Assembly (NCBI GenBank): GCA_951406725.2
Contig: OX597829.1
Location: 40,734,001-40,798,000, forward strand
Reading direction: 5' to 3'
DNA length: 64,000 nucleotides
DNA from: Octopus vulgaris
Taxonomy: Eukaryota
A program made the translations under genes and the position numbers. Shown one piece after another: positions 36,432 through 38,204 of the stretch (position 1 is its first letter; each line of letters opens with the position of its first letter). Under the pieces are notes generated by a model that saw only the letters and a program-made list of their open reading frames with translations, was not told where the DNA came from and did not search any database.

Positions 36432-36638
36432 TTTACTCATTTACTCTTTTACTTGTTTCAGTCATTTTGACTGTGGCCATGCTGGAGCACCGCCTCTAGT
36501 CGAGCAAATCTACCCCAGGACTTATTCTTTGCAAGCCTACTACTTATTCTATTGGTCTCTTCTGCCGAACCGCTAAGTTACGGGGACGTAAACACACCAG
36601 CATCAGTTGTCAAGCGATGTTGGGGGAGACAAACACAG

Positions 36639-36709
<71 letters not shown>

Positions 36710-36750
36710 TACGACGGGTTTCTTCCAGTTTCTTACCACACAGCCACTAT
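36432..36750 (-). mobile_element. SINE family A (internally deleted)
   Basis: Family A match, inverted relative to 35720-36145. Confidence 0.75.
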
Positions 36751-37023
36751 ATATATTTTATATTTCCTTTGTTTCAGTTGTCTGTTTGTGGCCATGCTGA
36801 GGCACTTGCCTTAAAGTGTTCTCTCTAGCCAATCGACCACCCCCCCCAGTTCTTATTTATTTATTTATTTATTTATTTATTTGGGAGGTGGTGGCTTAAA
36901 ATACACTACTTATTCTATCAGTCTCTTTTGCTGAACCACTAAGTTACAGGGACATAAACAAACCGACACAGGTTGTCCCAGCATTAGTGGGAGACAAATA
37001 CAACACAAACAGTCATTCACACA

Positions 37024-37254
37024 GGCGGAGAGCTGGCAGAATCATTAGCACGTTGGACGAAATGCTTAGCAGTATTTTGTCTGCCACTACGTTCTGAGTT
37101 CAAATTCCGTCGAGGTCGACTTTGCCGTTCATCCTTTCGGAGTCGATTAAATAAGTACCGGTTACGCACTGGGGTCAACATAATCGACTTAACCCGTTTG
37201 TCTGTCCTTGTTTGTCCTCTCTGTGTTTAGCCCCTTGTGTGTAGTAGAGAAATA
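37024..37254 (+). mobile_element. SINE family B
   Basis: Full-length match. Confidence 0.8.
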
Positions 37255-37665
37255 GATATATGATGGTCTTCTTTCAGTTTTCATCTAGCAAATCCACTCA
37301 TAAGGCTTTGGTCAACTCTTCTACAATAGTAGAAGACAGGCCCAAGTTGTTGTACAGTGGAACTGAAACCAAGACTGCAAGGTTGGGAAGCAAACTGCTT
37401 AACCACACAGCCACAGTTGTGCCTAATTGAGATTGTTTTATTTTAATTATATTGTATTTATTTGCATACTGTGTTCAGTACAACATCACGCAGTATTTAT
37501 TCATATATGATTATTCATATATTAGAAATATTAAATTTCTAAATATCTAGATATTTAGAAATTTAATATTTCTAATTTTGGTGATCAGTGAATAAACTTC
37601 ACTGAAAATATATATATTTACGAAGGCTTCACAAGCAGCATCTTCAGCTAGCAGGCCATGCTACC

Positions 37666-37710
37666 CCAGACTGATGATGAGCAAAGACCCAGAAACATGC
37701 ATGCCTCTGG
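37666..37710 (+). ncRNA. Degenerate minimal type I hammerhead ribozyme motif
   Basis: CCAGA-CTGATGA-TGAG caaaga CCCA-GAAAC-ATGCAT-GCC-TCTGG: stem I CCAGA/TCTGG, intact CUGAUGA and GAAA, palindromic stem III loop. Stem II has one mismatch and the cleavage triplet is GCC instead of GUC. Confidence 0.55.
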
Positions 37711-37917
37711 ATGCAAGCCTAGCTGTTGGGGGTGCTTGTCTCCCCTTCGTAAATATAAGGACACAGGTAATGTGTCAAGGCCGACAGGAAGCGTCGATGC
37801 TTCCTAGGGCTAAATAGCAGTCGTGTGATTCCCTTTATGGGACTGCCATGTTAAGTTGACAGTATACAACCGCTCTATTTATATATTATTATTCATATAT
37901 GATTCGTCTTGACAGAG

Positions 37918-38204
37918 CTGTAGTTCCCAAAGTGGGCGGTATTGAACCCCGCCCCCCACCGAGGGTGGTGGAAAGTTTCAAGGGGGTGTTGAAGAAAAGT
38001 GGGGGGGGATAATGGGGTAGCGATTCATGTAAAAACAACAAGATAATGGGTTTGTTAGGTTAAGTTTTATTTAGTGAAATGCAGTTGCTTTGAATTTGCT
38101 TCAGAAAGAGCTCTATGTTTGTGATGGTTAGTCGGGGTGGGGGGCTCTAGGAATCTGGCCTGGGTGTCAAGTGGGTGGCAGCCCAATAAAGTTTGGGAAC
38201 CGCT
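37918..38204. mobile_element. hAT/Charlie-like MITE
   Basis: ctgtagttcccaaagt ... agtttgggaaccgctg imperfect TIRs. Confidence 0.5.

What the first reader, a model, noticed from the sequence alone, without database searches (positions are those of the whole stretch)
37497..37904. ~375-bp TSD-flanked insert carrying a near-complete minimal hammerhead ribozyme
Seen: TTATTCATATATGATT is duplicated at 37497-37512 and 37889-37904. Inside is CCAGA CTGATGA TGAG-caaaga-CCCA GAAAC ATGCAT GCC TCTGG (37666-37710), with possible stem I extension (cagcta/tagctg, ggc/gcc). A weaker second hairpin-plus-GAAA motif lies at ~37577-37624 (AGTGAA taaac TTCACT GAAA). Established: minimal hammerheads with a palindromic stem III loop occur in PLEs and retrozymes and can cleave as dimers. 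Inference: two substitutions (TGGG>TGAG, GTC>GCC) inactivated this copy, and the family consensus may be active.
Basis: partly seen in the sequence, partly recalled or inferred. Interest (0 to 1): 0.7.

Follow-up and report, generated by a model that had tools for sequence, protein, structure and literature searches.

The report
Decayed copy of ribozyme-bearing jumping repeat
This stretch is a mutated, likely dead copy of a short repeat found thousands of times in this animal genome; its better-preserved copies carry a predicted self-cutting RNA, sit in the genome in the pattern typical of Penelope-type jumping genes that likely move them, and are repeatedly invaded at one spot by a second kind of jumping gene.

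Summary
Observation confirmed. The insert is one copy of a ~354-bp repeat family (2,312 exact matches to one 18-mer). The family carries a type I hammerhead with covarying stems and several different palindromic stem III loops. It has canonical retrozyme architecture, not the PLE 'minimal' one. This copy has lost the cleavage-triplet U (T in 51 of 53 aligned copies) and one stem II pair, probably CTCA>CCCA rather than TGGG>TGAG. Family insertions look Penelope-type: 116 of 127 3' ends fall at two positions ~54 nt apart, 27 of 32 inverted pairs have one of each, and target duplications are mostly 9-13 bp. The window copy fits this layout. So it is a non-LTR retrozyme, likely moved by a Penelope-like element that I did not find. 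The family is also a target: a 5.5-kb LINE and ORF1-only derivatives insert 15-35 nt upstream of the core (49 of 72 tails) and switch between unrelated hammerhead repeats. The scan noted LINE targeting of such repeats before, on other DNA. New here: ORF1-only passengers, and four loci where passenger plus repeat were copied together in Penelope style. Cleavage and expression are untested.

The parts
37497..37512 (+).
37510..37522 (+). Preferred left target-site duplication, 13 bp, flush with the element (2 nt overlap); lies in a 14-bp tandem that was probably already in the target
   Evidence: by eye; family duplications 9-13 bp; inference
37521..37548 (-). Inverted, 5'-truncated partner copy: last 28 nt of the unit (unit 327-354, long 'tail' end)
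37549..37576 (+). Direct copy of the last 28 nt of the unit (partial tandem, pseudo-LTR-like)
37577..37878 (+). Repeat unit positions 1-299, ending at the family's short (tail-less) 3' end; 91% identical to natural copy L005
37586..37604 (+). Hairpin/inverted repeat followed by an AT-rich run; similar hairpins with changed sequence in sister repeats; not a hammerhead; possibly part of a promoter (inferred, untested)
37613..37757 (+). Long stem extending helix I around the ribozyme (arms 37613-37651, 37719-37757); z = -4.5 for 37610-37760
37640..37655 (+). Site where LINE and ORF1-only elements insert in other copies (their duplication starts here); empty in this copy
37665..37711 (+). Type I hammerhead, damaged; predicted cut would fall after 37705
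37689..37689 (+). C where the closest relatives have T; leaves an A.C mismatch in stem II
37704..37704 (+). C where 51 of 53 aligned copies have T (U16.1 of the cleavage triplet)
37879..37887 (+). AT-rich filler between the short end and the right duplication
37888..37904 (+). Right duplication: 13-bp reading 37888-37900; 16-bp reading 37889-37904

Best explanation
The insert is a damaged, likely inactive single insertion of a ~354-bp non-coding repeat family whose other copies carry an intact, predicted self-cleaving type I hammerhead, and which is likely copied into the genome by the enzymes of a Penelope-like element (a non-LTR retrozyme). Shown: copy number, ribozyme covariation, the two lesions, two fixed 3' ends, inverted and tandem 5'-truncated partners, and 9-13-bp duplications. 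Inferred steps: (1) tandem copies are transcribed; (2) two ribozymes pair through the palindromic stem III and cut, giving unit-length RNA that may be closed to a circle; (3) a PLE reverse transcriptase/GIY-YIG primes near the unit's 3' end and copies a circular or multimeric RNA, running through both the ribozyme site and the unit junction, as the window copy does; (4) resolution leaves the ~54-nt tail on one end only. Separately, Tx1-like LINEs and their ORF1-only derivatives insert just upstream of the ribozyme (shown); some of these passengers were then likely copied along with the repeat by the PLE route.
For: Copy number: 3,086 first-look candidates, 40 scored, full-length matches 81-92%; 2,312 exact 18-mer matches, control 0; 669 matches to the core plus stem II pattern. 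Ribozyme: 16 of 27 pairs with two-sided changes, 0 of 500 shuffles as high, slid controls lower. Of the first 100 listed matches, 77 are GAG/CTC, 17 GGG/CCC and 6 mismatched (hand count). Stem III: 110 of 149 cores are exact palindromes, spread over at least six different sequences. Monomer stem III pairing probability is 0.11 or less in all 9 copies that could be folded, while the intermolecular duplex is -13.5 kcal/mol. Ends: 116 of 127 at two positions; 27 of 32 inverted pairs short+long, 0 short+short. Two protein-coding GIY-YIG families in this genome show the same two-end pattern, as described for PLEs (10.1101/2021.04.23.441226). Duplications: 17 of 46 inverted and 11 of 95 direct insertions have a non-simple duplication of 9 nt or more, against 1% for shuffled flanks. 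Tandem units (94%) and inverted arms (95%) within a locus are closer than copies between loci (89%).
Against: No autonomous partner sharing sequence was found in three GIY-YIG/RT families checked; the genome holds more (150 of 6,136 GIY-YIG candidates scored). No cleavage or expression data. The base of stem II is unpaired in 31 of 53 copies, which may lower activity. In a recent test 8 of 9 Xenopus retrozyme dimers did not cleave. 5' ends show no pile-up at the predicted cut (about 1 of 40 within 5 nt among loci picked by a 3' motif), so linear cleaved RNA is not the usual template. Shuffle controls ignore relatedness. Most copies are dispersed monomers or fragments, not long arrays. Rfam does not recognise the motif.
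Confidence: 0.85

Rival explanations
1. The repeat is just the 3' pseudo-LTR of an autonomous PLE, left as truncated copies, with no life cycle of its own.
For: PLE-type ends; strong 3' bias in depth, the 3' part about tenfold above the 5' part in four public runs.
Against: In tandem copies the unit start follows the tail directly with no ORF. No RT-GIY-YIG ORF was seen joined to the 5' side of any fetched copy; the joined ORFs found were LINE passengers bounded by their own duplications.
Confidence: 0.07
2. The unit is the terminal repeat of an ~2-kb ORF1/gag-like element, and the 354-bp form is a deletion product of that element.
For: Many ~2-kb forms exist with the ORF inside the unit, some with long open frames and in tandem; four loci show ORF region and unit copied together.
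Against: The insert has its own LINE-type 3' tail and 11-22-nt duplications that match each host subfamily. It sits at several different offsets, stacks in tandem at the same site, and occurs outside hammerhead repeats too. Close ORF relatives sit in hosts that do not align with each other.
Confidence: 0.04
3. The family spreads through DNA (satellite-like amplification, or a MITE/Helitron route) and the ribozyme is a relic.
For: Short tandems and terminal hairpins exist; no RNA evidence was obtained.
Against: Scattered 5' ends with fixed 3' ends and inverted 5'-truncated partners are marks of reverse transcription; compensatory changes and repeated reinvention of the palindromic loop point to selection on the RNA fold.
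Confidence: 0.04

Closest known systems
Metazoan non-LTR retrozymes (mussel 350-390 bp, axolotl Rtz_353, coral; PMC7229834)
   Same: 150-450-bp unit, GC under 50%, type I hammerhead, tandem and solo copies, duplications longer than 4 bp, strongly self-paired RNA. Axolotl HHR_Amex2 has a 2-bp helix III with tetraloop and a U.U mismatch at the base of helix II, much like this family.
   Different: No sequence comparison was made; expression and circles not shown here. Here the insertion anatomy points to PLE enzymes, which that paper only proposed; 'inverted' and 'truncat' do not occur in its text. No LINE passengers were in the parts read.
Retrozymes as non-autonomous PLE derivatives (bioRxiv 10.64898/2026.07.22.740005)
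   Same: Same conclusion: PLE-dependent, hammerhead-bearing, monomers to multimers.
   Different: That study used co-occurrence and pLTR similarity in 35 genomes (31 vertebrates, 3 insects, 1 anthozoan). Here the evidence is end structure, and no sequence link to an autonomous PLE was found.
EN+ Penelope-like elements (Penelope/Poseidon, Neptune, Nematis)
   Same: Partial tandems, inverted 5'-truncated copy, tail on one end only, (TA)n-rich targets, hammerhead in the terminal repeat.
   Different: No RT or GIY-YIG; tail ~54 nt against 30-40 nt described; ribozyme is canonical rather than minimal.
Tx1-clade LINEs that target other mobile elements (Tx1 in Tx1D; crocodilian Tx1-Mar; Keno in U2; PMC4494074)
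   Same: APE-RT LINE with CCHC-bearing ORF1, preferring one site in a multicopy repeat, with 5' relics of earlier targets.
   Different: Target is a ribozyme-bearing PLE-type repeat; abundant ORF1-only derivatives use it and switch between non-alignable hosts. Clade not tested by a tree.
HAL1 'half-L1' ORF1-only elements (recalled; not read)
   Same: ORF1 plus LINE 3' tail without ORF2.
   Different: Here site-preferring, and apparently also carried by a second, PLE-type route.

Membership tests
Type I hammerhead ribozyme (family level) | Core CUGANGA / GAAA / NUH around three helices with helix I open | tested here: met
   Core columns 48-53 of 53 conserved; U16.1 in 51 of 53; last triplet base C, A or T in 51 of 53
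Type I hammerhead ribozyme (family level) | Helices supported by compensatory change | tested here: met
   16 of 27 pairs two-sided; 0 of 500 shuffles; slid controls lower; relatedness not controlled
Type I hammerhead ribozyme (family level) | G10.1-C11.1 pair directly closing the core | tested here: inconclusive
   First position is C.A 23, U-A 20, U.U 6, A-U 2 of 53; the G-C pair comes next. A U.U mismatch is described for axolotl HHR_Amex2
Type I hammerhead ribozyme (family level) | Self-cleavage | not testable with these tools
   needs in vitro assay
Type I hammerhead ribozyme (window copy) | Intact NUH triplet and stem II | tested here: not met
   GCC at 37703-05; A.C mismatch at 37689; stem II probability 0.00, forced fold costs 7.6 kcal/mol
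PLE minimal hammerhead (PMC4209133) | Long helix II (7-8 bp), short helix I, little or no helix III | tested here: not met
   helix II 3-4 bp, helix I 6 bp plus extension, helix III 2-3 bp
Non-LTR retrozyme | 150-450-bp non-coding repeat, GC under 50%, many copies, tandems with a hammerhead per unit | tested here: met
   354-bp unit (335 in one array), dimers, a trimer and a 4-5-mer; 2,312 exact matches
Non-LTR retrozyme | Target duplications longer than 4 bp | tested here: met
   9-13 bp in 27 of 141 insertions plus the window copy; control 1%
Non-LTR retrozyme | Abundant linear and circular unit-length RNA | not tested
   no RNA reads were laid
Non-autonomous PLE | Fixed 3' ends, 5' truncation, inverted partner, tail on one end only | tested here: met
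   116 of 127 ends; 27 of 32 pairs; same pattern in two coding GIY-YIG families
Non-autonomous PLE | Shared terminal sequence with an autonomous RT-GIY-YIG element | tested here: inconclusive
   no match in three families; search far from exhaustive
Tx1-clade target-specific LINE (passenger) | APE + RT, CCHC ORF1, over 20% of copies in one target | tested here: met
   Exo_endo_phos 1.1e-11 and RVT_1 1.8e-29 in L399; zf-CCHC E 0.0009, just under the cut-off, in L204 ORF1; 49 of 72 ORF1-type tails next to a hammerhead core
Tx1-clade target-specific LINE (passenger) | RT phylogeny within Tx1 | not tested
   name rests on architecture, recall and earlier scan notes

The most novel reading that the evidence does not exclude
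This retrozyme family is the hub of a three-layer parasite system. PLE enzymes move the ribozyme repeat; Tx1-like LINEs move ORF1-only elements into one spot of it; and the resulting ~2-kb protein-coding retrozymes are then spread by the PLE route as units of their own, likely through ~2-kb self-cleaved circles. The gag-like gene would thus have two independent retrotransposition routes, and its RNA-binding product could serve the ribozyme RNA.
Probability: 0.3. Interest if true: 0.75.

Novelty: new member of a known kind. Interest (0 to 1): 0.45.

Why it matters
The window copy itself is an ordinary dead repeat. The family matters in two ways. First, which enzyme moves animal retrozymes was left open in 2020 and argued in 2026 from co-occurrence and sequence likeness; the end structure here is independent genomic evidence for Penelope-type enzymes, measured against coding GIY-YIG elements in the same genome. 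Second, the repeat is a landing site for LINE-derived ORF1-only elements that hop between unrelated hammerhead repeats and sometimes travel with them. That shows a way for a non-coding ribozyme element to gain a gene, and gives natural variant series for testing dimer cleavage and target choice.

Tried and rejected
Rfam found no hammerhead in the window or in intact copy L009. Second hairpin+GAAA motif rejected as a ribozyme: no CUGANGA, no triplet. Autonomous partner: 30 GIY-YIG loci, mostly one 781-aa Neptune/Nematis-like family, 30 loci of a very young 717-aa family and 20 loci of a third RT family share no significant sequence with the unit, apart from one locus that simply neighbours a copy. 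Spaced copy pairs checked as possible pLTR-ORF-pLTR elements held LINE passengers or nothing. Empty-site search: contigs of four public runs gave no listed joint across the insert, 128 joints not shown; no evidence either way. Expression: no RNA holder listed and no RNA reads laid. The protein search for ORF1 found nothing at E 0.001 among near-length proteins; the Atlas gave CCHC and ZCCHC3-like clusters at 0.90-0.93 as leads only. A U1-like 5' fragment at L224 (identity recalled) was not confirmed by Rfam. The folding lines were mis-registered by my pattern for six copies and were redone. Dedup failed and was redone. Literature searches found no description of this family or of ORF1-only elements in retrozymes. 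An octopus repeat-annotation paper has no 'ribozyme', 'hammerhead' or 'retrozyme' in its main text. Repbase entries, supplements and subscription papers were not seen and may describe it.

Full report
OBSERVATION. Alone they are weak: the core pattern has a chance mean of 0.25 per window, and Rfam reports no hammerhead in the window or in an intact relative. The region folds strongly, z = -7.4 for the insert (much of it from the palindrome) and -4.5 around the ribozyme. A perfect 28+28 palindrome at 37521-37576 is the repeat's own last 28 nt, inverted then direct.

FAMILY. The window lies in a 2.8-Gb animal assembly (G000:C16); 'octopus-type' rests on recall of its repeats and on earlier scan notes. 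A DNA search gave 3,086 candidates, 40 scored, full-length matches 81-92% identical. One 18-mer occurs exactly 2,312 times, control 0. A degenerate core-plus-stem-II pattern occurs 669 times. The unit is ~354 bp, seen as solo copies, dimers, a trimer and a 335-bp array. All unit coordinates refer to natural copy L005.

RIBOZYME. I aligned 53 copies: 51 chosen from 121 uninterrupted ones to span variants, most not picked by the ribozyme motif, plus two ORF1-flanked copies. For the 27 pairs I named, 87.8% of cells pair and 16 pairs change on both sides; 0 of 500 shuffles reach this and slid controls are lower. Relatedness inflates such counts. Stem II alternates GAG/CTC and GGG/CCC: 77 and 17 of the first 100 listed matches, 6 mismatched (hand count). 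Stem III is an exact palindrome in 110 of 149 cores, in at least six different sequences; the pattern fixed the outer letters and many of the commonest form were motif-selected. It hardly forms in monomers (probability 0.11 or less in 9 of 9 foldable copies; one copy did not parse) but gives a -13.5 kcal/mol intermolecular duplex, as expected for dimer cleavage (PMC4209133, parts 1-2 of 4 read). In loci not selected by the ribozyme motif, 36 of 64 copies pass a strict intactness pattern. Against activity: the base of stem II is unpaired in 31 of 53, although axolotl HHR_Amex2 has a U.U there (PMC7229834, passages and sections 13-14 read). By the definitions in those papers the architecture is canonical type I, not PLE-minimal.

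THE WINDOW COPY. Position 37704 is T in 51 of 53 copies and in 99-100% of laid depth in four public runs. Position 37689 is T in 55-72% in three of those runs and 0 of 14.7 in the fourth. The stem I variant of this copy goes with GAG/CTC 13 times and never with GGG/CCC, so the lesion is probably on the 3' strand. Loss of U16.1 is expected from established hammerhead chemistry to abolish cleavage.

INSERTION ANATOMY. In 93 loci picked by short motifs, 116 of 127 terminal 3' ends lie at unit 285-306 or 340-354. Of 32 inverted pairs, 27 have one of each, 4 have a long end plus another, 1 has two long ends, and none has two short ends. 5' ends are scattered, with no pile-up at the predicted cut. 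This is the PLE layout of partial tandems, an inverted truncated copy and a tail on one end only (10.1101/2021.04.23.441226, passages). Two coding GIY-YIG families here show the same two ends, about 70 and 40 nt apart. Non-simple duplications of 9 nt or more flank 17 of 46 inverted and 11 of 95 direct insertions, control 1%, all 9-13 bp except the window's 16; another 34 are simple repeats and uninformative. The window copy is long end (inverted) plus short end. A 13-bp duplication fits it flush on the left; the 16-bp reading probably adds a tandem already in the target (inference). The partner PLE was not found among three families.

PASSENGERS. Some copies are split by ~1.7 kb coding for a 445-465-aa protein with a CCHC knuckle and no RT. 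Related ORFs stand in tandem before an endonuclease-RT ORF in larger LINEs. The insert has its own AATAAA tail and 11-22-nt duplications. I obtained all 72 exact matches to the tail motif. In 50 a lenient core pattern follows within 80 nt; I judge one false, leaving 49, against a 3% background. About 9 more are followed by a short piece of host sequence, mostly running into another LINE start; the rest sit elsewhere. About 50 have ORF1 ending within 200 nt of the tail (hand count); only one has RT sequence on the same strand nearby, 456 nt away. Insertion offsets differ by subfamily, about 15-35 nt before the core. On a tree of 61 inserts (of 98 tails; 37 dropped for too little homologous upstream sequence), host labels need 22 changes, minimum 7, shuffled mean 39.5. 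Host B, which does not align with this unit, is nested among inserts in this family with 100/99 support. Labels came from my own patterns and a few are wrong. A 5.5-kb APE-RT LINE with a different tail sits at the same site in L399. Tx1 elements targeting other transposons are known (PMC4494074, passages). Earlier scan notes e1-8663643 and e1-8669911 reported LINE targeting of hammerhead repeats in this genome; I had seen it before reading them. Their transcription-start idea fits the AT-rich run 25-45 nt upstream but I did not test it.

CO-TRAVEL. Of 15 loci inspected, four (L374, L351, L377, L354) are inverted pairs with one short and one long end in which both arms include the LINE tail upstream of the ribozyme, mostly in (TA)n flanks. 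In L374 and L351 the breakpoints fall inside ORF1; L354 carries a different LINE-like body. Twin priming by a LINE would not duplicate the 3' part, so passenger and host were probably copied as one RNA by the PLE route. This needs an uncut or religated RNA. Whether composites form a self-sustaining lineage is open; a word look-up in earlier notes returned nothing.

VERDICT. A likely dead copy of a new non-LTR retrozyme family, probably PLE-mobilised (0.85), in line with 10.64898/2026.07.22.740005 (parts 1-3 of 5 read). The family adds end-structure evidence for the mobilising enzyme and hosts ORF1-only passengers. No cleavage or RNA evidence was obtained, and supplements were not read.

Noticed in passing
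L229+L260 (G000:C4:70.034-70.053 Mb); also L255, L258, L236/L253: Large LINE-like arrays with five or more tandem ORF1 genes, including several paralogues at about 35-55% to the query, each with its own LINE-type tail, ahead of one endonuclease-RT ORF; several copies score identically, so they look young.
   Followed up: partly
L203, L212, L222, L226 (host B); L216, L240, L371 (host D); L324, L340, L364 (host E): At least three more hammerhead repeat families that do not align with this unit; B and D share an upstream hairpin plus AT-rich run, and D and E start the core with U instead of C.
   Followed up: partly
L269-L298: A very young 717-aa GIY-YIG element (22,601 first-look candidates, 99% identical at the protein level in the 150 scored) with a hammerhead-like motif bearing a long helix II near its 3' end and two ends about 70 nt apart.
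   Followed up: partly
L035-L060: 781-aa Neptune/Nematis-like family with a variant minimal hammerhead about 80-90 nt before its (TA)n end and a ~40-nt tail.
   Followed up: partly
L299-L318 and one search hits: RT family with C-terminal GIY-YIG-like region; a relative at 62% identity has open frames up to 1,312 aa.
   Followed up: no
L224, 5' end of the ORF1-only insert: About 25 nt resembling the start of U1 snRNA (recalled; Rfam did not confirm).
   Followed up: partly
L389-L408: Older subfamily about 75% identical to this unit, with a 6-nt palindromic stem III and the same end layout; L389 and L390 carry LINE-type tails just before the ribozyme.
   Followed up: partly
window 36539-37260 and 37990-38150: Very high-copy short repeats flank the insert (depth up to millions); one ends in a motif like the LINE 3' tail (37229-37255).
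   Followed up: no
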